DNA of 64,000 nucleotides from a virus (Duplodnaviria; Heunggongvirae; Uroviricota; Caudoviricetes), in the IMG/VR virus record IMGVR_UViG_3300022862_000263; one strand, written 5' to 3'. The position numbers were made by a program, and so were the translations under genes. Under the pieces are notes generated by a model. It was not told where the DNA came from, searched no databases, and saw only the letters and a program-made list of their open reading frames with translations. Positions 1-23,618 of this stretch are shown here, in pieces (the first letter of the stretch is position 1; each line of letters begins with the position of its first letter).

Positions 1-70
1 TGAGCATGTGCAGCCGAAGCCGCACATGATACCCAAATGTTTCGCGAAGCACCTACAAAAGCTATGAAAA

Positions 71-622
71 TCAGATATCTGGAAGAAAATGTAAAGAATC
101 AGCCTGAGATAGCCCATACCCGCTCAGCACGCCGACAGTTGATGCGTCCGAAGCATGGCTTTGGAGGTACATTCGGAAGCGGTGGCCGTTCTCACGGCTC
201 TGGATGTTCAGCCAGGGGCTGCCGTCTGCTTCGACTTCAAGCATTTTCTTAAGACGCTTCTCGCCATCAGCCCTAGACTTAATGCGAATTCTAGAAAATG
301 CCTTGTAAGGCCCGGAAAAGTCTGGGGAAACGACCTTCGGGAAACCGGCTGTGAAGCTCTTTTCAAAGTGAGTTGAACGAGACACAAACTCATGCAGCTG
401 CACGTGATCATTTATGGTCTCGGCAAAGACCCGAAACGTGGAGATCCTCTTCTGTGGGCTCGAAGCATCGATAAAGGGCAGCGCCAGCGCGAATTTACCC
501 TTGAACTCAGAAAAGCCGGCATGCAGAGCTTTCATCAGACAGGAAGCGCCTTGAGACACCTCCTCCATGGAGGCTCGGCTGCCCACCTTGACGGTGTAAT
601 CAACGTAGGTGGCCGGAATCAT
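71..622 (-). CDS. cas6f: Cas6f/Csy4 CRISPR endoribonuclease (type I-F)
   Basis: 183 aa, the Csy4 size class. Last gene of a csy1-csy2-csy3-csy4 order with overlapping stop/start codons. C-terminal motifs resemble Csy4 (HRFRMYLQ.. vs HFRLFIRH; ..GYGLSQ vs CYGLSKGG). Confidence 0.65.
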   Translation of the reverse strand: MIPATYVDYTVKVGSRASMEEVSQGASCLMKALHAGFSEFKGKFALALPFIDASSPQKRISTFRVFAETINDHVQLHEFVSRSTHFEKSFTAGFPKVVSPDFSGPYKAFSRIRIKSRADGEKRLKKMLEVEADGSPWLNIQSRENGHRFRMYLQSHASDASTVGVLSGYGLSQADSLHFLPDI

Positions 623-1725
623 TACTTGTCACCGCCTTCGGAGTAAACGCCGCCTCGAATCAGTGAGGCGATCATGAACATGCCTTCATGGCTGTTGACG
701 TCGATGCTGTTGAGCTGGCGCATGTAAGCGAACGACGAGTCCTTCGCACCTCGGAACATTTTCTGAGCATCCAGGTTGGCGCCGCAGGGCTCTACCGAAA
801 TTGGCTGGCCATGGGACTCAAATCCTGGGTACCAGGTATCAATGGTGCGCAGTGCATTGGCCACCTTGGTGTCGCGGAATGCAGCTTGGCCAACCACGCG
901 ACTTGACTGCAGGGACATCAGGTCAGACTGAGGTTCCAGGAAGGATTCGCCGACCGCGTAGAGTGAGCGGGCAAATCCTTTTGGCTTGTCGCCACCCAGG
1001 TAGTTCTGGGAAGGAAAGACCTCCATGCCGCCGTTCATGCTGGCGCCGAAATCCAGAACAGCCATCACGCTGAAATTTTTCGTGGTTTGGCCTGCCAGGC
1101 AAAGCGCAATTTGCGTTCCCAGTTTCACCTCATCCGCAGAGTAATCTTTGAAGTGATTCATTGGTGTTTTCAGCGCGTTGAACGTCAGTTGCTCATCGCC
1201 AAAGTTCACGGTGATATTGACCTTGTTCGCGTACTGACGGTTTCTCCACAACCAGCGACCATTGGCAATGTTGCGGGCGTAGCGGTTCGCTACTTCCATC
1301 AGGCCTGCCGAGATCTCGGTTTTGGATGCGCTGCGGTTCAGGAAGTCGGTAAAGCTTGCCTTGAACGCGCCGAGGAGGGATTCATCGTCCGTTTTGGACA
1401 GGGCGCAGGAATTCAGGCCGTTTTCCAACGGGTAGAAGCTTACGCCCATCTTCACCGCCAGGGACTGGGCCGACATGTCGGTTTTCGCGCTGTCGGTCAG
1501 CTGAATGTTCGACACCTCTTGGCGGTCGCCGGTGGCTTTTTTGTTGATGTTCTGAGTGCCGCGAAGGCCACTGCGTGTAACCATCAATGGTTTCAGGGAT
1601 TTATCCGGCATAACGCTGTAGAACAGCGAATCGGTCACGTTGATTAGACGGGTGAAGGACAGAACGCCAGGAAGCTTGGAGAATTTTGCTGGTTGGGACA
1701 TGGTCTGGGGTCTCGAAATGATCAA
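622..1725 (-). CDS. cas7f: Cas7f/Csy3 Cascade backbone subunit (type I-F)
   Basis: 367 aa. Matches Csy3 blocks as remembered from the P. aeruginosa protein: IANGRWLWRNR, EVFPSQ, ANALRTIDTWYP, ASLIRGGVY at the C-terminus. Confidence 0.85.
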   Translation of the reverse strand: MIISRPQTMSQPAKFSKLPGVLSFTRLINVTDSLFYSVMPDKSLKPLMVTRSGLRGTQNINKKATGDRQEVSNIQLTDSAKTDMSAQSLAVKMGVSFYPLENGLNSCALSKTDDESLLGAFKASFTDFLNRSASKTEISAGLMEVANRYARNIANGRWLWRNRQYANKVNITVNFGDEQLTFNALKTPMNHFKDYSADEVKLGTQIALCLAGQTTKNFSVMAVLDFGASMNGGMEVFPSQNYLGGDKPKGFARSLYAVGESFLEPQSDLMSLQSSRVVGQAAFRDTKVANALRTIDTWYPGFESHGQPISVEPCGANLDAQKMFRGAKDSSFAYMRQLNSIDVNSHEGMFMIASLIRGGVYSEGGDK

Positions 1726-2528
1726 TAGGTTGTGATGGCGAATACGGTGTCGTCGATCCAGCGGCTGCGCCAGAACGGAATGGAGTCGCCTTCAAATTCA
1801 CGAATGGATACGTACTGAGCCAGGCCTAAAAGGGGCTCACCGTAGCTGTGTGCAGGGTAGGAACCATCAGACAGGCTTCTGACCCCGACAACACGCTCAG
1901 CTGGGGCGGTGATCAGCGCGTAGGCGGGCACCACCGGGGTCAGCCAAGAGTCACCGCTTTCGGGTGTTGGACGCTTGCTCAGCGCCGCTACCATGAGTGC
2001 TGCTGGGTCATCCCCCTCCAGCAATTCCTTGCGGTCGACGAGCCAATACCCGTTGCCAGGAATTGCGTCGAGCAGAGCATCGTCACTTGCACGGAATTCC
2101 TGGACGCTGGCGAAGCTTTCAATGACCCCGCCAGCGATGCGGCCACCGTTCAGGAATGACCGCACTTTTTCGAGATCTAGTTTTTCAGCGAACTCGATAA
2201 CCAGGCTGATTTTCAAGTGCGCCGTGGCCACCGGCTGCAGCGAGAGGGCCATCGTCCCGGTGACGTAGTCATTCTTGTCGATGTAGGTCGACGCTTTGCG
2301 CTGCTGGAACTGAGGCCGCTTGAAGCCGCTGTGGAAATCAGCTTCGGCCAGGTACTTGGCATCGTGATGAATCAGTGCCACACCAGAGGCATCGGAGCCA
2401 ATGCGTAGGCCCATTGCATGGGCAAAGAGGTGAACGGCCATAATCGGCGCCGCTGTCACTGCGTAATTGCTGGACAGCGCATTGGCATGGCGTACGTTAA
2501 GGTGCTTCAAAACCAGGAGATAGCTCAT
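1722..2528 (-). CDS. cas5f: Cas5f/Csy2 (type I-F), short variant
   Basis: 268 aa. N-terminus (LKHLNVRHANALSS) resembles the Csy2 N-terminus (LSIQNANAISS). Sits between csy1 and csy3 and is translationally coupled (4-bp overlaps). Confidence 0.6.
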   Translation of the reverse strand: MSYLLVLKHLNVRHANALSSNYAVTAAPIMAVHLFAHAMGLRIGSDASGVALIHHDAKYLAEADFHSGFKRPQFQQRKASTYIDKNDYVTGTMALSLQPVATAHLKISLVIEFAEKLDLEKVRSFLNGGRIAGGVIESFASVQEFRASDDALLDAIPGNGYWLVDRKELLEGDDPAALMVAALSKRPTPESGDSWLTPVVPAYALITAPAERVVGVRSLSDGSYPAHSYGEPLLGLAQYVSIREFEGDSIPFWRSRWIDDTVFAITTY

Positions 2529-3676
2529 TACAGGCAGCCCTTGACCAGGCCGGTAATCAGATTGATCTCGGCTTGTGAGTATTCGTGTTGGCGCTGCTCA
2601 TCGCTTTCGCATGTCGCGATGTGACGAGATAGCCACGATGAAAATTGGTATTTCCATTTTGCCGTCCGCTGCGAGGGATCGATCAGACCAACGCTCACAG
2701 CGTCCACATTGGCGCTGACAAGCGACTCACCTGGTAGTTGGTCTTTGTATGCGGTCAGCAGCTCATAGGCATCTGCACCGAGGCGCAGGAGATGGCGTAC
2801 AAAGCCGGAGATCAGCTTCGCGTGCTGTTCGCGAGCTTCCATATTGGCTTCGACGTTGCCTTGGCACTTGTTGCGCCAGGAGACGTATTGCGCCTGAAGG
2901 CCCTTAGGCAGGCGGGGATTTCGAATGCCGTTGTGATGCAGTGAAAAGACGCGGGAGCGCTCACTGCTCCGCGCTGGGAAGCATCCAACAATCGGCGCCC
3001 GCATAGAGAACACCAGGCCACCGGCATTCAGCGGCTTGGCGCCACCAATAGGGAAGTCAGCCAGGGTGATCCGCTTGAATGCCTGAGCCTTCCCGTCCTT
3101 GTTTTTGCGTAGCTCACTCAGTTGGAGGTTGTGCTCAACAATGGCCGTCTTGAGTTGGTGACTTACGCCGGCAGAGGAGAGGGGCGTCAAGCTGATGTAG
3201 CCGCCATCTGGTCGTGGCAGTAGGATCTGGCGGACACGCGGGGAGATCTTGTCAGCTTGCACGAAGCTCGATCTCTTGATGATCTCAAGGGAGCGCTTGA
3301 TGTGCCCAAACTCTAAGAGCGGCACGTCATCAACACGGCCTTTTGCGACATCAGCTATCTGGGAATAAATTCGCGAAGTGGCGGCGCCAGTGTAGCGATC
3401 CATCAGCACATCAATGCCATGGCCGATCAATGTCCGCACGCCCACGTATGGGAGCTTGATACCCTGTGAGGTGCCTACACGAACACCACCTGATTCAGCG
3501 TTGGTATTCACCGTCTTGAACGAGTGGTGAATGAGATGCTCAATGGCGGTGCTGTAGCTATCCAGGGGGTAGCTTTCCCAAGGCTTGAACTCTGAAGCTT
3601 CAGAGGTCGCTGATTCTTTGGTCATGGTGAAAGGGATCGTTGTCGAATTGGTGCGGCAATATATGGCAATCGTCAC
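2528..3676 (-). CDS. cas8f: Cas8f/Csy1 large subunit (type I-F)
   Basis: 382 aa. Block LLPRPDGGYISLTPLSSAGVSHQLK resembles Csy1 YFPLPGSGYHLLAPLFPTSLVHHVH. First gene of the csy operon. Start may be the internal ATG (MTKES.., ~3625). Confidence 0.6.
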   Translation of the reverse strand: MTIAIYCRTNSTTIPFTMTKESATSEASEFKPWESYPLDSYSTAIEHLIHHSFKTVNTNAESGGVRVGTSQGIKLPYVGVRTLIGHGIDVLMDRYTGAATSRIYSQIADVAKGRVDDVPLLEFGHIKRSLEIIKRSSFVQADKISPRVRQILLPRPDGGYISLTPLSSAGVSHQLKTAIVEHNLQLSELRKNKDGKAQAFKRITLADFPIGGAKPLNAGGLVFSMRAPIVGCFPARSSERSRVFSLHHNGIRNPRLPKGLQAQYVSWRNKCQGNVEANMEAREQHAKLISGFVRHLLRLGADAYELLTAYKDQLPGESLVSANVDAVSVGLIDPSQRTAKWKYQFSSWLSRHIATCESDEQRQHEYSQAEINLITGLVKGCL

Positions 3677-3759
3677 ATATCGTCAATTGCCTGCTAACCA
3701 TCGGAACGACAGGCCCGAGCCCTGTAAATCTACACTCATCCTCCAGGGCAGTCGGCTGG

Positions 3760-4215
3760 CTAGTCGAAAGCCTCTGAAAACCACAATTTCACGATTTCGA
3801 GCCTGGCTTGTGCCGAGTATAGGGCGAGCTTTCGCTCCGGGAGCCCTGCTGTCACGCTACGCAGCAGTTCAATGAACTCAGCCTCATCCGCGACTAACCT
3901 TCCATCAAGGTGGCGCAACAATGGTTTCAAGGGGCTGTCCACCAGTGCGATCTTTCTAGGCCAGCTCGGTGGGTAATCCAGTACCTCGCCGCTAGGCGTG
4001 ACCCAACGCCAATCATCGTCTCCGACTTGCTCTGCATCACCCTCCGGCGCAGCTTCCAGGAGTCTTAATCCTGAGGAGGGCCCTTCACCGCTTTCCCAGG
4101 CAGCAGCGCCATAGTACTTATTAGGTTTGGCTGCAGTCGAATCAAAGACGTTGACGGACGGAGGCTCTTCCTCGTTATGGAGAAACCAGCCGGCGCCGAG
4201 ATCAAGGTAGTGCAT
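3760..4215 (-). CDS. hypothetical acidic protein upstream of csy1 (no Cas1 or Cas2-3 features)
   Basis: 151-aa ORF sitting 84 bp upstream of csy1, where cas2-3 would be in a canonical I-F locus. No helicase or HD motifs. Confidence 0.3.
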   Translation of the reverse strand: MHYLDLGAGWFLHNEEEPPSVNVFDSTAAKPNKYYGAAAWESGEGPSSGLRLLEAAPEGDAEQVGDDDWRWVTPSGEVLDYPPSWPRKIALVDSPLKPLLRHLDGRLVADEAEFIELLRSVTAGLPERKLALYSAQARLEIVKLWFSEAFD

Positions 4216-4277
4216 TGGATACCCTTAAAGCGGATGGGGAGGTGACGCCCTGAAGCCTGCAGAAGGCAGAATATAGA

Positions 4278-4535
4278 CTCAAAACCACAAAAAGTGGAAA
4301 ACACATGCAAGCCAGGTTTTGTCGATGTCTCAACCACCTCACGATGGTGTACGCGTACCTACCGTCTTCATCAAAACCACCCGGAAGTGGTCGACGGTAA
4401 TCGCCCTTGTCAGCGATCTGGTTCCAAACCACGGTGAGTGGGGGACTTCGGAGTGATCGATGTCAAAACCACTGAATCAGTGGGTGACTGGGCGCTTTTA
4501 GTCTTCAAAACCGCATCGTGGCGGAGTAGCCAGCG
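4278..4535. repeat. array A: about 6 tandem units of ~40-53 bp, each with core tcaaaaccac-N5-9-gtgg(t) small hairpin
   Basis: Units start near 4278, 4331, 4371, 4424, 4463 and 4505. Conserved 10-bp core plus short inverted partner. The loop and inter-unit sequence vary. Confidence 0.6.
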
Positions 4536-4672
4536 CCAGGCGCAGGCAGAGTGGGGCGGAATGTATAGAGACCTGCACAACCTGTCAATATTTGGTAATT
4601 ATCCCTGATGCCTGAGGACGCGCCGACGAATATCTGCCAAAATCCGATCAGCCGAGAATCCCTCATGGAGCC

Positions 4673-5137
4673 ATGATGCCAACGTTAACCAATCTTGATC
4701 CCGAATACCTGTCACGAGACCTTGCGGTTGATGCGATTGATCGAGGTTGCTTGATAGCGCTGGTTGAAAAATGCTTACAATCTGAAAATCAGGCTTACAT
4801 TCAGGTCTACACAGGCGATGAAATCCTGAGCCATCGCATTGCGTTCATTAAGCCTGGAGAACCATGGATTGAGGAACCCATCACTCGCAAGGACGGTGCA
4901 GACCTTGCGTTGGCTATCGCCAGTGTTCTAGCGGCCCAGCGTGAGGAGAGCCCTTACGAGGTATGGATGGATGGCGGCGGGATTATTCAAACAAGCGATG
5001 GGCGCAGCGTTAAGCTAGTGGTGGCGTCATCTAGGGTCATCCCAGATGGGTATCATATACTGCTTAGAGCCTGGCCATTGACTGCCGCCCAATTGGGTTA
5101 TATTCGTGCAGAGTCTGCGAGCGAATCCCCCAACTGA
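4673..5137 (+). CDS. hypothetical protein between the two hairpin-repeat arrays
   Basis: 154-aa ORF with an ATG start and reasonable codon usage. No recognisable motifs. Confidence 0.4.
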   Translation: MMPTLTNLDPEYLSRDLAVDAIDRGCLIALVEKCLQSENQAYIQVYTGDEILSHRIAFIKPGEPWIEEPITRKDGADLALAIASVLAAQREESPYEVWMDGGGIIQTSDGRSVKLVVASSRVIPDGYHILLRAWPLTAAQLGYIRAESASESPN

Positions 5138-5529
5138 TCAGCTGATTCCAGATCTGAAGCTCTGGAGCCTTCAGCCCAGGCTCGGAAATCACTGGCGGCG
5201 CAGGTGTGAACTGGAATACCGGCATCGACATAGGCAAGCCGACCAATTGCTACGCCGTCATGGGCTTTGTAGTTCACAAGCGCTATTCCATGAGCCTCGA
5301 AGATGTTCTGGGTCTCGCGCTTCACTGCGCCGATGCTGTACATCTGGAAAGGCTTGAGCCCGTGGGTAGGGTTGGCAGGTCTGATCATTTCGAAACGCTA
5401 TGTAGCAGAGGAATTAGGTACCGGTGGGAGAAAATGGCTTTCGCAACAATCTGAGCCACTGATCAAAGACGCTGTCCTAATCTTGCCTGCAACCCTGACC
5501 AAGCGGTATGACTTCAATGGGCAGCAAGA

Positions 5530-5795
5530 AACAAACCACCTCGAGAGGTGGTGAACAACATCCGGATCGAGCGCTGGATGCTATTGAATTTGAAAACCAC
5601 CCTACGGGATGGCGAAGATGGTGGCTTTTGCCACTCCAAACCACCCCTTGGTGGTGAAATCTCGGAATCCAAGCTGACTTCAAAACCGCTGCTGCGGCGT
5701 ACCATGAAGAGGGTCTTGATCTCAAAACCACTGTAAGGTGGTGGCAAGGTTTTACCATCTTCGAAACCACATTTGCGGTGGTGAACCGGTTTGGG
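5530..5795. repeat. array B: about 6 tandem units of ~40-45 bp with the same tcaaaaccac..gtggtg hairpin core as array A
   Basis: Units start near 5530, 5590, 5634, 5679, 5721 and 5760. The core is the same as in 4278-4535. Confidence 0.6.
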
Positions 5796-5998
5796 GCTCT
5801 GGTTCTGCGTAGGGTCGTTTGAGGCGCCGGCGCCGATGATGCTTTTGATGGTGGCGAAATATAGTTACTATTCGGCATTCCGTCAATATATGCCATACGT
5901 TGACCTGATAAAGGCCTCTACGGTGTGAGCGGATCTTTTAGCAGCAGCCAGCAGGTCTGGCTTGCTCAGTTGTTGAGCCAGGCCTTGGCAGGCCTGCA

Positions 5999-9684: not shown

Positions 9685-10632
9685 ATGCCCCCATCCCAGC
9701 CGAGCAACAAGATTCCCGAAAGATTTCCGCCACAGCTGGCGCTGAATGTCATCCAGCCGCCCCAAGGATCTTGGCACTGGGAAATCAAATTCGATGGTTA
9801 CCGGGCCATGCTCCATATCCTTGGCGGTAGGGTGACCCTCTACACCAAAAATGGAGCTGACTGGACACGAAAATTTCCCAGAATCGTCTCAGCTATTGAG
9901 TCGCTTAGCCTGCAGAATGCCTGGCTTGATGGGGAGGTCATACTGCCTTCTAGCGACGGTAAACCAGACTTCGGCGGGCTCCAGGCGGCCATCGCTGGTG
10001 GCACAACAGACGACGTCGTACTCTACCTGTTCGACCTGATGTTCTATGCGCGGATCGATTACAGGATGAAGCCCATCGAAAAACGCCGGCGTAAGCTTGA
10101 AGGGTTACTGGAGGGCGTCGACCTTACGAATATCAGGTTTTCAGAAGCGTTTGCAGAGCCGGTGGAGTCCCTGCTGGCTTCTGCCTGTGCGATGGGGTTG
10201 GAGGGGTTGATAGGCAAGAAGGCGGGTAGCAGTTACACCTCGAGTCGTAACGGCGACTGGGTAAAGCTGAAATGCAAGCAACGCCAGGAGTTTGTGATCG
10301 CCGGCTACACGTCAGTTCAGGCTGGGGCAGGGGTTGGCTCCCTGGTTTTGGCTAGGTATGACGACGGTGGAAATCTTCTGTACGCGGGTAGGGTGGGTTC
10401 AGGTATCCGAGATAGAGATTCTGCGATTTTGTCGCGAACGCTGAAGCCCCTGAAAGCGGACTGCCCCTTAAGCTCGGCTGATGCAAAGCTCAAGGCCTCG
10501 GCCATCTGGGTGACGCCTGAGATTGTGTGTGAGGTGCAATACGCAGAACTCACGAGACGGGGCATTGTCAGGCATGGCGTATTCGTTGCGCTACGCAGTG
10601 ATACGCCAGTAAAATCTGTAAAACTTGAGTAG
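9685..10632 (+). CDS. ATP-dependent DNA ligase (LigD-ligase-domain/LigC-like)
   Basis: 315 aa. Motif I EIKFDGYR (adenylation lysine KxDGxR). Ligase motifs LEGLIGK and WVKLK are present. Confidence 0.8.
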   Translation: MPPSQPSNKIPERFPPQLALNVIQPPQGSWHWEIKFDGYRAMLHILGGRVTLYTKNGADWTRKFPRIVSAIESLSLQNAWLDGEVILPSSDGKPDFGGLQAAIAGGTTDDVVLYLFDLMFYARIDYRMKPIEKRRRKLEGLLEGVDLTNIRFSEAFAEPVESLLASACAMGLEGLIGKKAGSSYTSSRNGDWVKLKCKQRQEFVIAGYTSVQAGAGVGSLVLARYDDGGNLLYAGRVGSGIRDRDSAILSRTLKPLKADCPLSSADAKLKASAIWVTPEIVCEVQYAELTRRGIVRHGVFVALRSDTPVKSVKLE

Positions 10633-10646
10633 TACTTAAAAACGAC

Positions 10647-11348
10647 TCAGTACCTCTCAAAGACCTCTTGCGTTAGGTCTTCCTCTGTAACACCATCAAT
10701 TTTCATTAATCGTTCAGCTTGCTTGACGCCGTGGTTGTAACCCTCACCCCAAGCCGCCGCTGCAATCATGTAATCTTGGAAAAACCCGAGCTCACTGCCG
10801 AACAGGGGTATCACTAGCGAAGCGCTTTTTTGCGCAGACGTGAGCGCTTTTCTGTCATCAAACCTCTCAAGCTGATCATAAGTGCTTCTTAGGGATGACT
10901 GGGCAGAGTCAATGTACTCAGATATGTAATCGGTATCTGGCCTTCTATTTTCGCGATCTACATCGCACCATTTATCAAGCATGGCTGCAACATCTATCAA
11001 TACAGGGCACAGCTTGGCTTGATCTTTTATATTTGAGATTCCTGAAAAGCTACCCTGCAGCATGTAGATGCTGATGCTGTATGCCTCTTCTCCGCGTATG
11101 GTAATAGCGCTTGATTCTTCTGATGGAGGCTTTATGGAGCAGCGATACTTCCTGGCTATGGAATTAAGCGCATCCATCAGTTCGCCAAAGGTAAGACTCT
11201 CATCCCTGGTGAGGTTTGGCACCTCGGGTGCGAATACATCGACAAGAGTGTGATCATGACCTCGGCGCTTCCTGCTTGCGTTCATCAAGGGCACAAGTCT
11301 ATTTGCGACGTGAAAAAATTCTCGATGCGAATTTACGGCTCTAGGCAT
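10647..11348 (-). CDS. hypothetical protein
   Basis: 233-aa ORF, no recognisable motifs. Confidence 0.4.
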   Translation of the reverse strand: MPRAVNSHREFFHVANRLVPLMNASRKRRGHDHTLVDVFAPEVPNLTRDESLTFGELMDALNSIARKYRCSIKPPSEESSAITIRGEEAYSISIYMLQGSFSGISNIKDQAKLCPVLIDVAAMLDKWCDVDRENRRPDTDYISEYIDSAQSSLRSTYDQLERFDDRKALTSAQKSASLVIPLFGSELGFFQDYMIAAAAWGEGYNHGVKQAERLMKIDGVTEEDLTQEVFERY

Positions 11349-11541
11349 TAGGGCTGTCCCTTGATCTTTTTTCGATTTTATCTCGATGACTCAATTAAAA
11401 GCGAGAATTGCCAGGCCACTGCTGTAGCAGGGCTCGTCAAAAATCAGGGCAATGCTGGGCTTCGTCGCCACATGATGGCTGGACAGGAGTAGATTCTTTT
11501 GGTATTCTTTTTAAATTCTTTCGTGGTTTTTTGGTAAAAGA

Positions 11542-11937
11542 ATGGCAACGATAGCTATCGACCTTCCCGATGAGGTTCTCCTCAAGGTAATGCAGGCGGC
11601 CTCGGCAGAAGGGCGTAGCCTCAATGACCATGTCGTCATGACGCTACTCGACTCGTTGGCGACTCCGGAAAATGGAGCTCCTCCCAACGCCGGCGCCGCC
11701 CTGGTAGAGAGCATACTCGAGCGCTCGATCAACTTTGTTCTTAGCATAGATGCTGGTTCTGAGTTTTTTCTTTCAGACGTCTGCAATGCCGATGATTGGG
11801 CAGCCCTGGATGCCGGGCAGCGCAAAAGCCTTGGCAAGAAATTCCGGAACCAGGTCACTGACAGAGGTCTCGCGATATGGAAAGGGAAAAGTGGGAATAA
11901 CCACGCCCTCTATGTGCGCTGTGATGCAACCCCTTAA
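11542..11937 (+). CDS. hypothetical protein with RHH-like N-terminus
   Basis: 131 aa. The N-terminus MATIAIDLPDEVLLKV..EGRSLNDHVVMTL resembles ribbon-helix-helix antitoxins/regulators. Confidence 0.35.
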   Translation: MATIAIDLPDEVLLKVMQAASAEGRSLNDHVVMTLLDSLATPENGAPPNAGAALVESILERSINFVLSIDAGSEFFLSDVCNADDWAALDAGQRKSLGKKFRNQVTDRGLAIWKGKSGNNHALYVRCDATP

Positions 11938-11957
11938 GATTTACAGGAGTTAGAGTT

Positions 11958-12716
11958 TTGTTCCCGGCCATTCTTCAGAGTCAGCTCGACCTTTTCAAAA
12001 AGCACAACCTGGTAGCGTTGGCCGTGTGGCCAGGAAAGGCCCCTGCAGGTTGGGTGCAAAATGTCGCTCCATCGTTTGCTGGGCTGCAAAGCTTGCCATC
12101 CACCGGCCTCACACGGTCTACACTGCGGGCGCTATGGGCTAACAAAGCCATCAGCACAGAGATCTGTGTGATCTGTACCCTGGCCTGGGGTGAAATGAGC
12201 GTCAGGAATGCTCGTAAGCTGGTACCGACCATGGCGAATTGGCTTCCGCTGTGTGATGAGATCCGCCAGGGTAAGCACAATCGCAAGAGTGCATTCACCG
12301 CCTTCTCGAAGCTGAAGGCTGCCAAGAAAATGCCTGGCATGGGGCCAGCGTACTTCACCAAAATCATCTTCTTCGCCGATCCAAAGGGCGACGGGTACAT
12401 CCTCGACCAATGGACTGCCAGAAGCGCTCACATGCTGACTGGCCAATCCAAGTGGCCGGCCATCACCCTGAACCATGAAACGCGTGAAGATGCCAAGACG
12501 AGGCCAGAGGCACTGCGTCTCCGTGTGGTTGACCGAGTCACTGCCGATCACTATGAAGATTACTGTTCGATGGTGGAGCATATTGGAGCCACGCTTACCA
12601 TCCATCCCCATGTGGTGGAGGAGCGCTTGTTCAGCGCCGGAGGGCACAACCCCCATCCATGGCGCGACCATATCATGACCGCTTGGGCGGTAGGGCTTAA
12701 TCCATTGTACAAGTAA
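11958..12716 (+). CDS. hypothetical protein
   Basis: 252-aa ORF. Possible HhH-like segment (KMPGMGPAYFTKIIFF). Uncertain. Confidence 0.4.
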   Translation: MFPAILQSQLDLFKKHNLVALAVWPGKAPAGWVQNVAPSFAGLQSLPSTGLTRSTLRALWANKAISTEICVICTLAWGEMSVRNARKLVPTMANWLPLCDEIRQGKHNRKSAFTAFSKLKAAKKMPGMGPAYFTKIIFFADPKGDGYILDQWTARSAHMLTGQSKWPAITLNHETREDAKTRPEALRLRVVDRVTADHYEDYCSMVEHIGATLTIHPHVVEERLFSAGGHNPHPWRDHIMTAWAVGLNPLYK

Positions 12717-12766
12717 GGCCAGCTTTCATTTACAGAGCCCGCCTTTTCACGAGGCGGGTGCTGAGA

Positions 12767-13576
12767 TCAGAAATCTGGACAGAGCTCTTCCTCCATCAAT
12801 TTCACCTTGGTGCGAAGATCAATTTCCGTGACAACACTGTTGATGACCTCATCGAGCTCTTCGTTGTCAGAGTACAGGTGGCCTACTTGCTCACCCATGT
12901 ACCTTACCAAGATTTGAAAGGCAGGCTGCTTGGAAAGTCGCTTCATAGCCTTTGTGAATTTGTCGAGGATCTTCTCTGACTGCTGCTGATCCTCAGCGTT
13001 TTCGATCCGCTCCTCGTAGGCTTTAATCAGCTCGCGGGCCGATAGGAATGAGGCTTCGTAATCCAGTGCTCTCCAATAAGTCTCATGGGTGCCAGTAGTG
13101 AGCGCACCGATTTTTTCGTAGCCATTCTCGCCACGAACATGGGTGAGCATGTCCTCTGCGTCCTGTATGCATTCACCGTCAAATGCACCACATAGGGAGA
13201 CGCTTGTATGGCTGGCCAGATCTCGATGCCAGTCCTCAATACAGACGATTTGATCAGGATCCCCTTCATACCGGGTTGCCTGGATGAGCGTGCAGCCCTG
13301 GCCTTCGTACATATCCCTGACCTCGGCATATCCGAAGATGTGGTGCTCAAAAGGGATACCACGGGAGGTAAGGTAGTCTGTGATCGGAAGCTGAACATCA
13401 CAAGGCCCCGGCATTTCCCATGTCGTCAAAACAACGTTGTTGATCCGAGCGCCCTGTGGGGAGTGCAAGTAGTCGATGATATTGAGGGCGGCATCCTCTG
13501 GAGTCATCCCGAAGTTTGCGAGGCCATCCCTCCAGGTTTCTTCCAGGTGGTGTATGAGTAGGGTGTGCTTTTTCAT
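12767..13576 (-). CDS. hypothetical protein
   Basis: 269-aa ORF, convergent with the previous gene. No recognisable motifs. Confidence 0.4.
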   Translation of the reverse strand: MKKHTLLIHHLEETWRDGLANFGMTPEDAALNIIDYLHSPQGARINNVVLTTWEMPGPCDVQLPITDYLTSRGIPFEHHIFGYAEVRDMYEGQGCTLIQATRYEGDPDQIVCIEDWHRDLASHTSVSLCGAFDGECIQDAEDMLTHVRGENGYEKIGALTTGTHETYWRALDYEASFLSARELIKAYEERIENAEDQQQSEKILDKFTKAMKRLSKQPAFQILVRYMGEQVGHLYSDNEELDEVINSVVTEIDLRTKVKLMEEELCPDF

Positions 13577-13901
13577 TAAAACTGGCCTTGTTTCCAGATC
13601 GAGGCGAAAGGCGCCTTTCCCGGAGCTCTTTTGGTTAGCCTAGCATTGGAGGTTCTTGCAATGCAGCCTGCCCTTTGGGGCAGGAACGGCGACTTGTGCG
13701 CATCAGCAGCCAAGGCTATCTAAGCTTTAATTTCGATTTTTATGTCTTGCGCAGCTCTGCGCCGGAAAAGTAAGAAATACCTTATATTTTGCGCTGTCGC
13801 CGCGCTCGATAGCCAAAATCGAAAGGATAGCTTCGATTTCATTGACAAAAGCACCAGCGCAGGCCAAAATGTAAGGTATAAATTAGATTTTTGGCGCACC
13901 C

Positions 13902-14129
13902 ATGAACAATAACCTGAGACAAATTCGCACAGCCTCAGAGCTTGGTGACATCGTCCGCCATGCGCGGAAGAAGCAGGGCATCACCCAGGCAGACCTGGCT
14001 CTGATCACTGAGAAGAGTCATGTGCTGCTGCGCGATATTGAGACCGGAAAGGGCTCTGTTTCATTCGCTAGCGTGCTTCAGGTGCTGAATGAGCTCGGCA
14101 TTCGCATGTATGTGGAGCCTGGTCAATGA
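13902..14129 (+). CDS. hipB: HipB-like XRE-family HTH antitoxin
   Basis: 75 aa. HTH core GITQADLALITEKSHVLLRDIETGK. Its stop overlaps the hipA start (ATGA). Confidence 0.8.
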   Translation: MNNNLRQIRTASELGDIVRHARKKQGITQADLALITEKSHVLLRDIETGKGSVSFASVLQVLNELGIRMYVEPGQ

Positions 14130-15379
14130 GGTCGCTTGAGGTTGTAATCAATTCAGACCATGTCGGTTCACTCAAAGACCAAAACGGCATCTGGAGTCTC
14201 GAGTACACGCCAGCCTGGATCAAGAATCCCGATGGTTACGACTTGGCGCCCACCTTGCCAAGGACAGAGGAATCGATCCTTGACGGTTCAACGAACCGGC
14301 CTGTGCAGTGGTTCTTCGATAACCTGCTTCCCGAGGAGGATGCCCGCCGTTTGTTGGCCACTGATGCGAAGATCGAGTTTGCTGATGCATTTGGGTTGCT
14401 GGGTTACTACGGGGCGGAGTCTGCCGGCGCAATTACTCTCCTGAACTCGCTGCAGGATGAGGAGGAGGGTGGCCTCAAAGCATTGCCAGATGAGCTCCTT
14501 AGCCAACGGATTCAGAATCTTCCTCGTGTAGCGCTTGCCACTGGGGCGCCTAAACGCATGTCTCTGGCCGGCGCTCAGCACAAACTCGCGGTGGTGATGA
14601 ATCAAGAGGGGCTATTTGAGCCTGTGGGGTCTACGCCGTCGACCCACATCCTGAAGCCTGACCACGATGACCCGAATACCTATAACGCCACAGCCGCGAA
14701 TGAATGGTTCATCATGACCATCGCCAGGAAGATTTGGGGTGAGGTTCCTCCGGTCTACCTTAAGCGCGTACCCGAGTCCGTCTATCTAATTGAGCGCTTT
14801 GACCGCTCAGAGGTCGGTGGCCGGTTGGTGAGGGAGCATGTCCTTGATGCCTGCCAATTGCTGGGGCTGGACAAGACCTTCAAGTACAACCAGGCAACGG
14901 TGGAGACCCTGCAGCGCATCTTGGGCCTGGTGCGGAATGTAGCGAAGACGCGGATGCAGCTTTTCACCTGGCTGGTATTCAACACCCTGGTTTGCAATAA
15001 CGACAACCACCTGAAGAACCTGTCATTCTTCGTCAAGGGCGACTCGTATCACCTGACTCCTCACTACGACATGCTGTGCACCGGCATATACGGCGCCACG
15101 AACACCCCATGGCTCAGCGCAGATCTGGTCTGGAGGCCGGAAGGGGTGCGCACTTTTGATGAGGTGACGCTGGGGAGCTTTTTGCAGTTGGGCAAGGAAA
15201 TTGGCCTGGGCGAAAAGATCGCTCACAAGCTGATTGTGAGCCTCACCAAAAGTATCCTCGATGTGGCGCGTTCACTGATAGACGAGCATGCCGACAGTAT
15301 GATGGCTGGGGAAGCGCAGCTGATCAGACGGATCACGTTTGGCGCGATCACGGACATGGTGGCTAAGCTCAAGTCCTAG
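14126..15379 (+). CDS. hipA: HipA-family serine/threonine kinase toxin
   Basis: 417 aa. Catalytic loop NNDNHLKNLSF, ATP-binding region LAGAQHKLAV, N-terminal HipA_N-like (LEYTPAW). Confidence 0.85.
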   Translation: MRSLEVVINSDHVGSLKDQNGIWSLEYTPAWIKNPDGYDLAPTLPRTEESILDGSTNRPVQWFFDNLLPEEDARRLLATDAKIEFADAFGLLGYYGAESAGAITLLNSLQDEEEGGLKALPDELLSQRIQNLPRVALATGAPKRMSLAGAQHKLAVVMNQEGLFEPVGSTPSTHILKPDHDDPNTYNATAANEWFIMTIARKIWGEVPPVYLKRVPESVYLIERFDRSEVGGRLVREHVLDACQLLGLDKTFKYNQATVETLQRILGLVRNVAKTRMQLFTWLVFNTLVCNNDNHLKNLSFFVKGDSYHLTPHYDMLCTGIYGATNTPWLSADLVWRPEGVRTFDEVTLGSFLQLGKEIGLGEKIAHKLIVSLTKSILDVARSLIDEHADSMMAGEAQLIRRITFGAITDMVAKLKS

Positions 15380-15427
15380 CCCGCCTTAGGGAAGGTCGCC
15401 ACAACGTACTGTGGCGACCTCAATCAC

Positions 15428-17137: not shown

Positions 17138-17282
17138 GAGATTGCGGAGCGCACTGGGTCAGACAGACACCTTCGAATTGAGGAAGGAGGCGATCATCAG
17201 CAATGACAGGGGTTGAAGCCAGAATTTATCAGGCTTTTTGCCATCAAATCAATGCCGACTTGAGGTCAATTCCCTAGGAAGA

Positions 17283-17744
17283 TTAACGGCAATCAGGCGC
17301 AGGAGCATCGGGCTCAAAGCGATCCAGGCGGAGCCAGGCTTTCTGATATTTTGCGTTGCGCTTCAGATCGGATTCTGTGACTTTAGGTAGGCGCGAGAGA
17401 TCCATGTTGTCCTTGAGATCTTCCATTTTGACCTTTCTCGCCACTTCATCTGGCGCGATTCGATCAATGAATTGCATATAGCTCTCTCCCTCGCGCCGGG
17501 ACAAGATCTCGACCCTGGAAACCACCTCTTCGGGCAGGCCCGCCTCAGCGAGATCCTGAGCTGTGATGCCGCAATCCTCAATGACATCATGCAGCACAGC
17601 GACGGCCTTGCTGATTGTGTCATTCATCCGGGCCATAACCCGAAGAGGGTGGCTGATGTAGGGTTGGCCAGCCTTGTCCACCTGGCCGGCGTGAGCTCGC
17701 ACAGCGACCGCAATCGCGACATCGAGAATGCGGGCAGGCTTCAT
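17283..17744 (-). CDS. small HD-domain (p)ppGpp hydrolase-like protein (RelA/SpoT hydrolase-domain-only, Mesh1/SAH-like)
   Basis: 153 aa. RAHAGQVDKAGQPYISHPLRV and VLHDVIEDC match the RelA/SpoT HD hydrolase signature. Confidence 0.6.
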   Translation of the reverse strand: MKPARILDVAIAVAVRAHAGQVDKAGQPYISHPLRVMARMNDTISKAVAVLHDVIEDCGITAQDLAEAGLPEEVVSRVEILSRREGESYMQFIDRIAPDEVARKVKMEDLKDNMDLSRLPKVTESDLKRNAKYQKAWLRLDRFEPDAPAPDCR

Positions 17745-18141
17745 GCGAGACTCCTTGTGAAGATGTGATGGGGTATGCCAAATATCCTAACACGGCTTTG
17801 AGGTTGGGTCTCATTTACATCATCGAATTTACCCAAAACCAATCTACATAAATGCCGGAATAGGCGTCCGCTAGGCGAGAATTTTACGTCATACCTTAAA
17901 TATAGACATCGCCTTTAAAAATGCAGGCTAAGCTCGACTTTAATGAGCCACTTTCTTTCGAGGTGTGGTATCATTCCGCGTGTGTGAAAGTCGGGTTTAG
18001 CGAGCATGTCACGCCTGCTGGATTGACTGACAATATATCGAATTGTTTTGAGCTGTTGCACCTTGCCAAGGGCGCAGCGGCGGGGCTTGTTTTGCCCGCT
18101 GTTGTGACGCAGCATCTCCCCTAAATGGAATCTGACTGCAC

Positions 18142-20937
<2,796 letters not shown>

Positions 20938-20956
20938 TCGCAAGCATTGACGGAGC

Positions 20957-20983
20957 GGGGCGCCCTTTGGGGCGCTCTTTTTT
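20957..20983 (+). terminator. rho-independent terminator after gyrA
   Basis: GC stem gcgccc-tttg-gggcgc followed by a TCTTTTTT run. Confidence 0.7.
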
Positions 20984-20992
20984 CACGTCCCA

Positions 20993-21814: not shown

Positions 21815-21871
21815 TCGATCAGGCCACGTAACGTTGCGAAAAATTATTCGAGCCTCCTGAGGAAAGTCGCT

Positions 21872-22126
21872 ATGAGTGCACAATCCAAAATCAATCAAGG
21901 TTCTCAGTTCCCATACGACCGACCGGACGATGATGACACGCCAGCAGTTCCTGCTACCGACTGGGCCCACGTCGCAGCACGTGGCATCTTGGCTGATTTG
22001 ACCGGTCGTGCAGGGATTGGTAACGAGCTAGAGCAATATGACGAAGAGATTCGCAATGAGATCATTACCTCAGCTGCCGAGATCATTCGCCTGGCGCATA
22101 GCCAGGCCACCCCAGGAGGTCGCTGA
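21872..22126 (+). CDS. hypothetical small acidic protein
   Basis: 84 aa. GAGGAAAG RBS 6 nt upstream of the ATG. Confidence 0.4.
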   Translation: MSAQSKINQGSQFPYDRPDDDDTPAVPATDWAHVAARGILADLTGRAGIGNELEQYDEEIRNEIITSAAEIIRLAHSQATPGGR

Positions 22127-23564: not shown

Positions 23565-23618
23565 GGCATTTCAATAGGTGCGGTTAGCTAGGCCCAGGAA
23601 TTTCTCCTCAGGGCATAA

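What the first reader, a model, noticed from the sequence alone, without database searches (positions are those of the whole stretch)
71..3760. Orphan type I-F Csy effector cassette (cas8f-cas5f-cas7f-cas6f) with no cas1 and no cas2-3 nuclease-helicase upstream
All four Csy/Cascade subunits are present and tightly coupled. Cas7f is unmistakable and the others are recognisable at motif level. The 84-bp-distant upstream gene (3760-4215) is a small acidic unknown. It is not the ~1100-aa Cas2-3 that always precedes csy1 in canonical I-F loci, and no cas1 lies anywhere in the 64 kb. Cas8f and Cas5f are separate proteins, so this does not look like the fused I-F3 transposon-associated form, and no tnsABC/tniQ genes are visible. 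Cas5f is unusually short (268 aa). The result would be a crRNA-guided DNA-binding complex that cannot recruit its cognate nuclease, for example for silencing or plasmid/phage competition. It could also depend on a Cas2-3 supplied in trans. Any array would lie beyond position 1 (only 70 bp follow cas6f).
Basis: partly seen in the sequence, partly recalled or inferred. Interest (0 to 1): 0.72.

Follow-up and report, generated by a model that had tools for sequence, protein, structure and literature searches.

The report
Nuclease-free I-F CRISPR with fossil guides
A Pseudomonas-type megaplasmid carries a CRISPR DNA-binding complex that has lost both its DNA-cutting enzyme and its memory-writing enzymes, yet keeps a conserved set of short guide RNAs, so it most likely acts as an RNA-guided gene silencer rather than as an immune system.

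Summary
The four genes are real: cas8f, cas5f, cas7f and cas6f lie on the minus strand at 71-3625. There is no cas1, cas2-3 or Tn7 gene in the 64 kb window or in 10 kb beyond position 1.

Twelve degenerate I-F repeats sit upstream of cas8f in two clusters (4277-4529 and 5528-5786). They are on the cas strand, and each cluster follows a sigma70-like leader promoter. Spacers are 12-25 nt, plus one of 32 nt.

The same layout occurs in Pseudomonas megaplasmids of about 1 Mb and in large metagenomic contigs.
- All members lack cas1 and the Cas2 domain.
- cas3 was lost at least twice independently.
- All four cas genes are under purifying selection (dN/dS 0.05-0.25).
- Spacers are orthologous across loci and conserved only in their 5' seed.
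- In three Cas3-bearing relatives, one guide matches a CC-PAM site at the cas8f promoter, with mismatches only at positions 6 and 12.

Best reading: a binding-only Csy complex with a hard-wired array of crRNA-like guides, that is, natural CRISPRi. Targets of the window's own guides were not found. I class it as a new variant of a known kind.

The parts
71..622 (-). cas6f (Csy4-like endoribonuclease, 183 aa)
   Evidence: Pfam PF09618 6e-7 and PADLOC Cas6f 5e-9. The catalytic-region motifs LMKALHAGF and QSRENGHRF are conserved in all relatives. dN/dS is 0.05-0.12.
622..1725 (-). cas7f (Csy3 backbone subunit; ORF from TTG 1725, likely start ATG 1701, 359 aa)
   Evidence: Pfam Csy3 8e-59 and TIGR02566 1e-62, above its cut-off. 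It is about 50% identical to canonical I-F1 Cas7f and 74-97% identical to clade members.
1722..2528 (-). cas5f (Csy2, 268 aa)
   Evidence: Pfam Csy2 9e-12. PADLOC Cas5f PDLC01289 gives 4e-27 over 1-259 of 260 model positions.
2528..3625 (-). cas8f (Csy1 large subunit, 365 aa; the ORF is open up to GTG 3676)
   Evidence: PADLOC Cas8f 4e-30 and Pfam Csy1 3.6e-5. The AF2 model has a confident C-terminal helical bundle, and the top PDB fold hits are Csy1 chains with E from 1e-3. The start at 3625 matches the public gene call and all relatives.
3658..3686 (-). sigma70-like promoter of the cas operon (TTGACG-17-TATATT)
   Evidence: The promoter scan gives 10 of 12 matches. The same promoter type precedes cas8f in L003, L013, L041 and pPL1. 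This is a consensus match only; transcription has not been shown.
3760..4215 (-). ORF151, a small acidic protein (pI 4.6) between array cluster 1 and cas8f; function unknown and lineage-specific
   Evidence: No hit in Pfam, NCBIfam, PADLOC or PHROGs. No homologue in any relative's locus or on the whole of pPL1.
4277..4529 (-). Degenerate CRISPR array, cluster 1. Six repeat-like units: 4529-4503, 4488-4461, 4446-4421, 4395-4369, 4352-4326 and 4302-4277. Spacers are 14, 14, 25, 16 and 23 nt.
   Evidence: A covariance model built only from relatives' repeats finds these units at E 7e-5 to 1, all on the minus strand. All fold into a hairpin in the same register.
4560..4588 (-). Leader promoter of cluster 1 (TTGACA-17-TACATT)
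   Evidence: Promoter scan. The sequence downstream of the -10 box (TCCGCCCCAC) resembles the leaders of L003 and pPL1.
4673..5137 (+). ORF154, a small acidic protein (pI 4.6) on the opposite strand between the two clusters; function unknown and lineage-specific
   Evidence: No family hits. No homologue in relatives.
5528..5786 (-). Degenerate CRISPR array, cluster 2. Six repeat-like units: 5786-5759, 5746-5720, 5702-5678, 5659-5633, 5617-5589 and 5556-5528. Spacers are 12, 17, 18, 15-16 and 32 nt. The last unit is terminator-like.
   Evidence: Covariance model hits at E 1.6e-4 to 0.08. Unit 5556-5528, GTTCACCACCTCTCGAGGTGGTTTGTTT, closely resembles the sister-clade repeat GTTCACCGCCCTGCGGGCGGTTTAGAAA. 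The terminator scan flags 5552-5535.
5841..5902 (-). Conserved array leader containing a sigma70-like promoter (5886-5858, TTGACG-17-TATATT)
   Evidence: A BLAST block of 80-88% identity to the leaders of L012/pPL1 and L013, although synonymous sites in the cas genes are near saturation. Promoter scan.

Best explanation
This is a type I-F (Csy/Cascade) module that has been cut down to RNA-guided DNA binding.

Proposed mechanism:
1. Two promoter-driven clusters of twelve degenerate repeats are transcribed toward the cas genes.
2. Cas6f cuts at the conserved hairpins (CCACC-loop-GGTGG followed by a TTTNGAAN handle).
3. Each crRNA-like RNA, carrying a short 12-25 nt pseudo-spacer, is packed into a shortened Csy complex made of Cas8f, Cas5f, a few Cas7f subunits and Cas6f.
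4. With no Cas1-Cas2, the array cannot be renewed. With no Cas2-3, and with R-loops shorter than 32 bp, nothing can be cut.
5. The complexes therefore act as sequence-specific roadblocks or repressors, a natural CRISPRi, at sites that match the conserved 5' seeds next to a CC PAM.

Shown by the analysis:
- The genes and the repeats are present.
- cas1, the Cas2 domain and cas3 have been lost.
- The cas genes are under purifying selection.
- Only the spacer seeds are conserved.
- Cas3-bearing relatives have guide-to-promoter matches.

Inferred:
- Transcription and processing of the array.
- Assembly of the complexes.
- Repression at target sites.

The identity of the window's own targets is unknown.
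For: 1. Effector genes are intact and HMM-supported.

2. No cas1, cas3 or tns genes in 74 kb.

3. A covariance model trained only on relatives recovers exactly 12 repeat units in the window. All are on the cas strand in two clusters, and nothing else in 64 kb scores below E=3. All 12 fold into the same hairpin.

4. Eight related loci carry 7-21 such degenerate repeats directly upstream of cas8f (L003/L005, L012 = pPL1, L013, L014-16, L041, L042). In L013, L041 and pPL1 the arrays grade from regular units with spacers of about 30-32 nt into short, irregular ones.

5. Evolutionary series. The sister clade has cas2-3, cas1 and a regular 28/32 array. The close clade lacks cas1 and the Cas2 domain. 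cas3 is absent from the window and from the L003/L042/L015 branch but present in pPL1, L013 and L041. The window lies outside the rest with 100% bootstrap, so cas3 was lost at least twice.

6. dN/dS is 0.05-0.25 for all four genes with dS of 0.7 to more than 2, including pairs that both lack Cas3.

7. There are 44 cross-locus spacer pairs with at least 9 of 10 identities in the first 10 nt. The figure is 4 for the last 10 nt and 0.2 for shuffled spacers. This is the seed-conserved, tail-divergent signature reported for regulatory mini-arrays (PMC10120712).

8. Guide-to-promoter matches in relatives:
- In L013 and L041 the 13-nt spacer AAACACAATTC(A/G)A matches CC|AAACATAATTCAA next to the -35 box of the cas8f promoter.
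- In pPL1 a different spacer gives the best seed hit on the whole 1.17 Mb plasmid, CC|TGTAAGATTTGACA, overlapping the cas8f -35 box.
- All mismatches fall at positions 6 and 12.

9. Published biochemistry. I-F1 Cascade assembles on spacers of 14 nt and longer and binds DNA, but only R-loops of at least wild-type length trigger Cas2/3 (PMC7296934). Csy complexes on 18-22 nt pseudo-spacers contain fewer Csy3 subunits and repress promoters (10.1101/2024.10.29.618823).
Against: - No convincing target was found for any of the window's 12 spacers. The searches covered 74 kb of its own replicon, its own promoters, phage and plasmid databases, IMG/VR and JGI metagenomes.
- The conserved seeds have no CC-PAM matches on the complete relative plasmid pPL1 beyond chance, apart from the cas8f promoter.
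- The autoregulatory pair seen in Cas3-bearing relatives is not present in the window, nor in the Cas3-less L003/L042.
- The window's array is the most eroded of the clade. It has 12 units, is split by two inserted ORFs, and some stems are only 4 bp, so part of it could be decaying.
- There is little covariation in the stem within the clade: it is conserved rather than compensated.
- No expression or processing data exist.
- The other roughly 575 kb of the replicon could not be read.
Confidence: 0.55

Rival explanations
1. The cassette is still an interference system that borrows Cas2-3, and possibly Cas1, in trans. The donor would be a second type I-F system on the same megaplasmid or in the host chromosome.
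For: - In L014-L016 the Cas3-less cassette lies about 6 kb from a complete sister-type I-F locus (cas2-3 of 1030 aa plus cas8f).
- Cas8f keeps a well-conserved, confidently modelled C-terminal helical region with no deletions specific to Cas3-less lineages.
- The window retains one 32-nt spacer between two good repeats.
- Plasmid CRISPR-Cas systems often lack adaptation modules and are thought to use them in trans (PMC9071438).
Against: - Ten of the 11 spacers bounded by two repeats are 12-25 nt, too short to trigger Cas2/3 in I-F1 (PMC7296934).
- The repeats are individually diverged, so no recent Cas1-mediated acquisition has occurred.
- The Cas3 kept in the closest relatives is only about 53% identical to the sister-type Cas2-3, so cross-recruitment is uncertain.
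- No protospacer was found for the 32-nt spacer.
- No cas3 lies within 74 kb.
Confidence: 0.15
2. It is an anti-defence or inter-element weapon. In this reading the megaplasmid brings both its own Csy complex and a multi-guide array like the published MGE 'Cracr' arrays. These would silence promoters of the host's or rival elements' CRISPR-Cas or other defence genes, or soak up host Cas2-3 and crRNAs.
For: - Phages and plasmids are reported to carry multi-spacer arrays of crRNA-like RNAs with 18-22 nt pseudo-spacers that repress I-F cas or creT promoters (10.1101/2024.10.29.618823).
- That study's pipeline discarded hits next to cas genes, so loci like this one would have been missed.
- In relatives, guides do target an I-F cas8f promoter.
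- Two small acidic orphan ORFs sit inside the window's array region, as anti-CRISPR genes often do. This last point is speculative.
Against: - No seed matches the promoters of the co-resident or sister I-F systems available here beyond chance level.
- The promoters that are targeted in relatives are the system's own.
- No acr or aca family hit was found.
- Host chromosomes could not be searched.
Confidence: 0.15
3. It is a decaying remnant. After losing cas1 and cas3 the locus would be non-functional and drifting, and the repeat-like units would be a rotting array.
For: - The window has the fewest and weakest repeats of the clade, some with 4-bp stems and E-values of 0.02-1.
- The array is interrupted by inserted ORFs.
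- No targets were found.
- A relative carries a Cas8f-Cas5f fusion that deletes the Cas8f C-terminus (P0129), which shows that erosion occurs in the clade.
Against: - All four genes are intact in all nine loci compared.
- dN/dS is 0.05-0.25 at near-saturated dS, including between Cas3-less lineages.
- Repeat hairpins, handles and spacer seeds are conserved where neutral DNA would be unalignable.
- The leader and cas promoters are conserved.
Confidence: 0.08
4. It is a type I-F3 CRISPR-associated transposon (CAST) whose tns genes lie outside the inspected region.
For: It lacks cas1 and cas2-3 and has atypical repeats in short arrays, as I-F3 systems do. This comparison rests on general knowledge and on PMC12669027.
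Against: - No TnsA, TnsB, TnsC or TniQ family hit among the 45 window ORFs scanned with Pfam, which include every ORF of 230 aa or more.
- No such genes appear in the called genes of 8 related loci with 10-kb flanks.
- tniQ is not in the operon.
- The array is upstream of cas8f, not downstream of cas6f.
- Close relatives keep cas3.
Confidence: 0.02

Closest known systems
Type I-F1 CRISPR-Cas with a regulatory mini-array between cas3 and cas8f (cr-like RNA / CreR-type autorepression; Shmakov et al. 2023, PMC10120712)
   Same: - Degenerate repeats lie upstream of cas8f on the cas strand.
- Short pseudo-spacers are conserved in the seed and divergent in the tail.
- PAM is CC.
- Mismatches are tolerated at every sixth position.
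- In relatives (L013, L041, pPL1) the target is the cas8f promoter.
   Different: - Here there are 12 units (7-21 in relatives), not one spacer between two repeats.
- cas1 and the Cas2 domain are gone from the whole clade, and cas3 is gone from the window.
- No normal immune array is present.
- The window itself shows no promoter-matching guide.
MGE-encoded multi-spacer crRNA-like ('Cracr') arrays and RNA anti-CRISPRs (10.1101/2024.10.29.618823; PMC10651486)
   Same: - Carried by a mobile element.
- Several short pseudo-spacers (about 18-22 nt) between degenerate I-F repeats form one transcription unit.
- Expected to form small Csy complexes that bind DNA without cutting.
   Different: - The published elements have no cas genes and hijack the host's Csy proteins. 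This locus encodes its own complete Csy set.
- Their targets are host cas or creT promoters. No such target was found here.
Type I-F3 (Tn7-like CAST) and type I-F4 (HNH-Cas8f): the recognised Cas3-less I-F variants (PMC12669027)
   Same: A type I-F effector without Cas2-3 and Cas1. The arrays are short and atypical, as in I-F3.
   Different: - No tnsABC or tniQ, so it is not I-F3.
- No HNH domain in Cas8f, so it is not I-F4.
- No replacement effector is visible next to the operon.
Type IV-A plasmid systems
   Same: They are plasmid-borne class 1 effectors with Cas6 processing. They have no adaptation module (10.1101/2023.06.23.546257, abstract) and no nuclease. Their action by transcriptional interference rather than cleavage is stated from my own knowledge.
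   Different: - The protein families differ (Csf versus Csy).
- IV-A keeps a DinG helicase, regular arrays and full-length spacers that can be acquired in trans.
- Here there is no helicase, and the repeats and spacers are fossilised.

Membership tests
Type I-F CRISPR-Cas effector (Csy complex) | Cas7f (Csy3) backbone subunit | tested here: met
   TIGR02566 1e-62, above its cut-off. Pfam Csy3 8e-59 over the full length.
Type I-F CRISPR-Cas effector (Csy complex) | Cas5f (Csy2) and Cas8f (Csy1) subunits | tested here: met
   - Cas5f: Pfam 9e-12, PADLOC 4e-27 end to end.
- Cas8f: PADLOC 4e-30 and Pfam 3.6e-5, just over the gathering score. NCBIfam is far below its cut-off.
- The top PDB fold hits are Csy1 chains, but with low TM-scores.
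- Cas8f is the weakest assignment.
Type I-F CRISPR-Cas effector (Csy complex) | Cas6f (Csy4) endoribonuclease with its catalytic His and Ser | tested here: met
   Pfam 6e-7 and PADLOC 5e-9. NCBIfam is below its cut-off. The His-containing LMKALHAGF and Ser-containing QSRENGHRF motifs are conserved. Their assignment as catalytic residues rests on my recollection of P. aeruginosa Csy4 and was not aligned to a solved structure here.
Type I-F CRISPR-Cas effector (Csy complex) | 28-nt repeat with a 5' GTTCA-type flank, a short GC hairpin and an 8-nt 3' handle, spaced by 32-nt spacers | tested here: inconclusive
   The repeat architecture is present in 12 units. However, the units are individually diverged, and only one spacer is 32 nt; the others are 12-25 nt.
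Complete type I-F1 immune system | Cas2-3 fusion nuclease-helicase and Cas1 integrase in the locus | tested here: not met
   No tblastn hit in the window or in L001. No Pfam Cas1 or Cas3 family among the scanned ORFs. The rest of the replicon was not readable.
Type I-F3 CAST | tnsA/B/C and tniQ adjacent to or in the operon with the cas genes, inside Tn7-like ends | tested here: not met
   No such families in the window or in relatives' called genes. Transposon ends were not searched for.
Type I-F4 | HNH nuclease domain fused to Cas8f | tested here: not met
   Cas8f is 365 aa with no HNH hit. Stand-alone HNH genes occur only near cas2-3 of sister-clade loci.
Type I-F2 | Absence of a Cas8f large subunit | tested here: not met
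   A Cas8f gene is present and conserved. The closest PDB sequence hits for Cas6f are the Shewanella Csy4-family proteins 5o6u and 5o7h, which I take to be I-Fv (I-F2) Cas6f, but only at E about 0.4.
Regulatory cr-like RNA genes (CreR/CreA-type mini-arrays) | Degenerate repeats flank a shortened pseudo-spacer whose seed is conserved while its 3' part diverges | tested here: met
   44 seed-conserved cross-locus pairs, against 4 for the tails and 0.2 for shuffled spacers. The window shares at least three seed families with relatives: TCAGCNTGGAT, AAGACNGTAGG and CTATATTCTGC.
Regulatory cr-like RNA genes (CreR/CreA-type mini-arrays) | Partial match to a promoter next to a cognate PAM | tested here: inconclusive
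   Met in the relatives L013, L041 and pPL1 at the cas8f promoter, with a CC PAM and mismatches only at positions 6 and 12. Not found for any window spacer.
MGE 'Cracr' arrays | Stand-alone guide arrays without cas genes that use the host's Cas proteins against host cas or creT promoters | tested here: not met
   The array here is linked to its own complete Csy operon. No host-type target was found. Host genomes are not available.

The most novel reading that the evidence does not exclude
[quoted passage not shown] It would have a heritable array of about 10-20 hard-wired short guides, with seeds kept by selection, that programs a nuclease-free Csy complex to control a regulon of plasmid, host or rival-element genes. 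cas3 would have become dispensable and been lost repeatedly. This would be the first natural type I system whose only job is multiplexed gene regulation.
Probability: 0.35. Interest if true: 0.85.

Novelty: new variant of a known kind. Interest (0 to 1): 0.68.

Why it matters
If the reading holds, this clade shows the steps by which an adaptive immune system becomes a fixed gene-regulation device:
1. A complete system.
2. Loss of cas1 and the Cas2 domain.
3. A frozen array with shortened guides.
4. Repeated loss of cas3.

It would extend the known single-guide autoregulators (CreR, CreA and related cr-like RNAs) to a stand-alone, multi-guide, nuclease-free system encoded by a mobile element.

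It would also offer a compact natural type I-F CRISPRi scaffold that works with guides of 12-25 nt.

A practical point: public annotation calls this clade's Cas8f 'hypothetical protein'. A published search for such arrays also filters out repeat-like hits next to cas genes. Loci of this kind are therefore easily overlooked.

Tried and rejected
- **Canonical I-F repeat search.** Searching the window for the canonical repeat with up to 3 mismatches, plus TRF, an Rfam scan and exact-repeat CRISPR finders, gave nothing. The array is too degenerate for these methods. It was found through the motif GTGGTTTTGA and by comparison with the sister-clade repeat.
- **Array beyond position 1.** None within 10 kb.
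- **Targets of window spacers.**
  - PAM-plus-seed scans of 74 kb found only a weak hit of spacer 9 inside cas8f at 3361 (p about 0.1).
  - The window's own promoters gave nothing with a CC PAM.
- **Targets of pPL1 spacers.** Across the whole 1.17 Mb plasmid, only the cas8f promoter stands out. The overall number of seed hits equals that for shuffled spacers.
- **Conserved seeds.** Tested against all loci and against sister-system promoters, they gave chance-level hits only.
- **Full-length spacers.** Eighteen spacers of 29-35 nt had no match in phage or plasmid databases. The window's 32-nt spacer had none in IMG/VR or JGI metagenomes.
- **Conserved 20-nt spacer with CC PAM in metagenomes.** This gave 30 hits. 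All fall on the common coding motif (A/D)R(V/L)I(I/V/L/F)LG, which I read as the N-terminal strand of Rossmann-fold proteins, and 13 of them on the recurring N-terminus HAR(V/L)IILGSGPAGYSAA, which matches TrxB. My own estimate of the chance expectation is about 10 hits, assuming roughly 10^12 bases in the collection.
- **Pseudomonas trxB follow-up.** The site has a CC PAM, but the seed breaks at position 7 or 10, so I rejected it.
- **Stem covariation within the clade.** It is weak: the stem is conserved rather than compensated.
- **Other checks.**
  - A literature string search for the seed sequences found nothing relevant.
  - Sequence search of the PDB with Cas8f gave no hit.
  - ORF151 and ORF154 gave no family hits.
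  - No relative of the window's Cas8f was found in IMG/VR.
  - In PLSDB, pPL1 is the only clade member found by a Cas7f search.

Full report
**1. The observation**

The window's left end carries four tightly packed minus-strand ORFs. HMM searches assign them as follows.
- Cas7f: Pfam Csy3 8e-59; TIGR02566 1e-62, above its cut-off.
- Cas5f: Pfam Csy2 9e-12. PADLOC Cas5f gives 4e-27 end to end on a 260-position model, so 268 aa is the normal size for this subfamily.
- Cas8f: PADLOC 4e-30 over residues 39-251; Pfam Csy1 3.6e-5, just above the gathering score; NCBIfam far below its cut-off.
- Cas6f: Pfam Csy4 6e-7; PADLOC 5e-9.

Cas8f is the weakest call. It has no sequence match in the PDB.

An AlphaFold model built on 14 homologues is only moderate (pLDDT 67, pTM 0.42), although its C-terminal 145 residues form a confident helical bundle. 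Seven of the eight best PDB fold matches are Csy1 chains of Csy complexes, with E from 1.1e-3 but TM-scores of only 0.17-0.27.

cas8f most likely starts at the ATG at 3625 (365 aa), as in all relatives.

No Cas1, Cas2-3 or Cas3 is detectable by tblastn with relatives' proteins. No Cas1, Cas3 or Tn7 family appears among the 45 window ORFs scanned with Pfam.

**2. Beyond the window**

The Cas6f protein is found on an ENA metagenomic contig of 649,744 bp. That contig is 100% identical to the window over 10,622 nt. It supplies 10 kb to the left of position 1.
- That stretch holds a 124-aa ORF, a Shufflon_N (PilV-like) gene and unrelated genes.
- It holds no CRISPR array and no cas1 or cas2-3.

The window has 51.7% G+C. 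Its genes include an ATP-dependent ligase, a GyrA-like protein, Cmk, UvrD, HipA, a Shedu-like protein, Fic, WYL and SPFH. Twenty-six of 60 ORFs have homologues on the 1.17-Mb plasmid pPL1 of Pseudomonas silesiensis. The window is therefore a piece of a Pseudomonas-type megaplasmid.

**3. The array**

Upstream of cas8f, on the cas strand, I noticed repeated short hairpins followed by TTTTGA. Their meaning became clear from relatives.
- The sister clade (Cas7f 55-62% identical) has a complete I-F system: cas2-3 transcribed divergently, then cas8f-cas5f-cas7f-cas6f-cas1.
- It also has a regular array with the repeat GTTCACCGCCCTGCGGGCGGTTTAGAAA and 32-nt spacers.
- The window's units are diverged copies of that repeat. 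For example, 5556-5528 reads GTTCACCACCTCTCGAGGTGGTTTGTTT. It is preceded by exactly 32 nt and then by another unit.

A covariance model built only from 70 repeats of other loci finds exactly twelve units in the 64-kb window.
- All are on the minus strand, in two clusters (4277-4529 and 5528-5786).
- E-values run from 7e-5 to about 1, and nothing else scores below E=3.
- All twelve fold into a hairpin in the same register, at -4.7 to -11.8 kcal/mol.
- Spacers are 12, 17, 18, 15-16 and 32 nt in cluster 2, and 14, 14, 25, 16 and 23 nt in cluster 1.

The only three sigma70-like sites in the first 6.2 kb are all on the minus strand.
- One sits in front of cluster 2 (5886-5858).
- One sits in front of cluster 1 (4588-4560).
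- One sits in front of cas8f (3686-3658).
- The last unit of cluster 2 looks like a terminator.

Two small acidic orphan ORFs lie in this region: ORF154 between the clusters and ORF151 between cluster 1 and cas8f (pI 4.6).

**4. The clade**

Close relatives (Cas7f 74-97% identical) occur in these places:
- pPL1;
- a 1.06-Mb plasmid of P. serbica IT-P366;
- the 949-kb plasmid pPLMAXa;
- metagenomic contigs of up to 900 kb.

Every one has 7-21 such degenerate units directly upstream of cas8f. In L013, L041 and pPL1 the leader-proximal part is still regular, with spacers of about 30-32 nt, and the array becomes short and irregular toward cas8f.

None has cas1.

Those that keep a helicase-nuclease have a Cas3 without the Cas2 domain. 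In L013 Cas3, Pfam finds HD, DEAD and Cas3_C but not PF21384. The whole of pPL1 has no cas1.

A tree of the four concatenated proteins gives (window,(pPL1,((L013,L041),(L015,(L003,L042))))), with 100% bootstrap for the window lying outside the rest. cas3 is present in pPL1, L013 and L041. It is absent from the window and from the L015/L003/L042 branch, so it was lost at least twice.

**5. Evidence of function**

Pairwise dN/dS of all four genes is 0.05-0.25, with dS from 0.7 to saturation. This includes comparisons between Cas3-less lineages.

Against that background, parts of the arrays and their leader still align at 80-89% identity.

Spacers are orthologous between loci.
- 44 cross-locus pairs share at least 9 of their first 10 nt.
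- Only 4 pairs do so for their last 10 nt, and 0.2 do so for shuffled spacers.
- This seed-conserved, tail-divergent pattern is what Shmakov et al. describe for regulatory mini-arrays (PMC10120712).
- The window shares the seed families TCAGCNTGGAT, AAGACNGTAGG and CTATATTCTGC with relatives.

**6. Targets**

In L013 and L041 a 13-nt spacer (AAACACAATTCAA or AAACACAATTCGA) matches CC|AAACATAATTCAA right next to the -35 box of the cas8f promoter. It differs from the site only at positions 6 and 12.

In pPL1 a different spacer gives the single best seed match on the entire plasmid.
- The site is CC|TGTAAGATTTGACA.
- It overlaps the -35 box of cas8f.
- Mismatches again fall only at positions 6 and 12.

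These are the known hallmarks of I-F autoregulatory guides. They show that guides from these arrays are matched to real sites.

For the window itself I found no such pair. I also found no credible target anywhere I could look.

A scan that seemed to point to trxB start regions turned out to reflect a common coding motif, (A/D)R(V/L)I(I/V/L/F)LG, which I read as the start of Rossmann-fold proteins. It failed in Pseudomonas trxB.

**7. Mechanism**

Published work shows two relevant things.
- I-F1 Cascade assembles on spacers as short as 14 nt and binds DNA, but only R-loops of at least 32 bp switch on Cas2/3 (PMC7296934).
- Csy complexes on 18-22 nt pseudo-spacers contain fewer Csy3 subunits and repress promoters (10.1101/2024.10.29.618823).

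These findings, together with the gene losses and the selection pattern, make one reading the most likely. The window encodes a binding-only Csy complex, loaded with hard-wired crRNA-like guides, that acts as a repressor.

Transcription, Cas6f processing, assembly and repression are inferred, not shown.

Rivals, most to least likely:
- Cas2-3 supplied in trans. A complete sister system sits 6 kb away in L014-16.
- An anti-defence role like the published MGE guide arrays.
- Simple decay, which the selection data argue against.
- A CAST, which is refuted by the absence of tns genes.

**8. Comparison and novelty**

The recognised Cas3-less I-F variants are I-F3 (Tn7 CAST) and I-F4 (HNH-Cas8f) (PMC12669027). 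The defining features of both were tested and are not met here.

The nearest functional analogue is the I-F1 mini-array between cas3 and cas8f. That is one guide inside a complete immune system.

Published MGE guide arrays have no cas genes of their own, and the pipeline that found them discarded repeat-like hits next to cas genes.

I found no description of a cas1-less, cas3-less I-F operon with a multi-unit, seed-conserved degenerate array.

I therefore rate it a new variant of a known kind. Interest is fairly high, held back mainly by the missing targets for the window's own guides.

Noticed in passing
window 3760-4215 (-) and 4673-5137 (+): Two small acidic proteins (151 and 154 aa, both pI 4.6) are inserted in the array region. 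They have no hit in Pfam, NCBIfam, PADLOC or PHROGs and no homologue in any related locus or on pPL1. Their size, charge and position suggest anti-CRISPR-like genes, but that is speculation.
   Followed up: partly
P0129 (Logan contig of 46 kb): A 504-aa protein joins the N-terminal 235 or so residues of this clade's Cas8f in frame to a full Cas5f. A Cas8f-Cas5f fusion that loses the Cas8f helical C-terminus has therefore arisen inside the clade.
   Followed up: no
L017-L040 (pPL1, NZ_CP143488) about 950,469-959,766: pPL1 carries a second, distant type I-like locus. It has a Cas7f-like ORF (27% identity) and a Cas3-like ORF (28% identity).
   Followed up: no
L014-L016 15761-21080: In this relative the Cas3-less cassette lies about 6 kb from a complete sister-type I-F locus (HNH gene, cas2-3 of 1030 aa, cas8f). 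HNH-domain genes also sit next to cas2-3 in L006 (3893-4816) and L009 (3915-4745).
   Followed up: partly
(Cas8f homologues P0121-P0136): NCBI and JGI label this clade's Cas8f 'hypothetical protein', and most members have no precomputed Pfam hit. Public annotation would therefore show only cas5f-cas7f-cas6f.
   Followed up: no
window 5-28 (minus strand, just after the cas6f stop): An inverted repeat, CATGTGC-GGCTTCGGCT-GCACATG, follows cas6f. It could be a terminator hairpin, but it has no T run.
   Followed up: no
L001 11036-12562; L003 12328-15412: PilV-like Shufflon_N genes lie just downstream of cas6f in the window's replicon and in the L003 lineage. They are absent at that position in the Cas3-bearing relatives.
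   Followed up: no
window 9685-25372 and 44939-57439: The surrounding genes suggest a defence and maintenance island:
- ATP-dependent DNA ligase (9685-10632)
- OGG-like glycosylase (11958-12716)
- HipA (14126-15379)
- Shedu SduA_C-like (15428-17137)
- a 931-aa GyrA homologue (18142-20937)
- Cmk (22791-23564)
- GmrSD_N fragment (25484-26035)
- WYL (44939-45829)
- SPFH/flotillin (48150-49637)
- Fic (56414-57439)
   Followed up: no
window 47232-47272: A perfect-looking tandem repeat, (GATTCACA) x5, lies in an intergenic region.
   Followed up: no
window 4276-4216 and the equivalent position in L003, L013, L014, L041, L042 and pPL1: The unit CTATATTCTGC(G/C) follows a repeat in every array of the clade. 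It is itself followed by a 60-70 nt stretch without repeats that contains a small hairpin. It is the most widely conserved 'spacer', and its role (guide, promoter or small RNA) is unexplained.
   Followed up: partly
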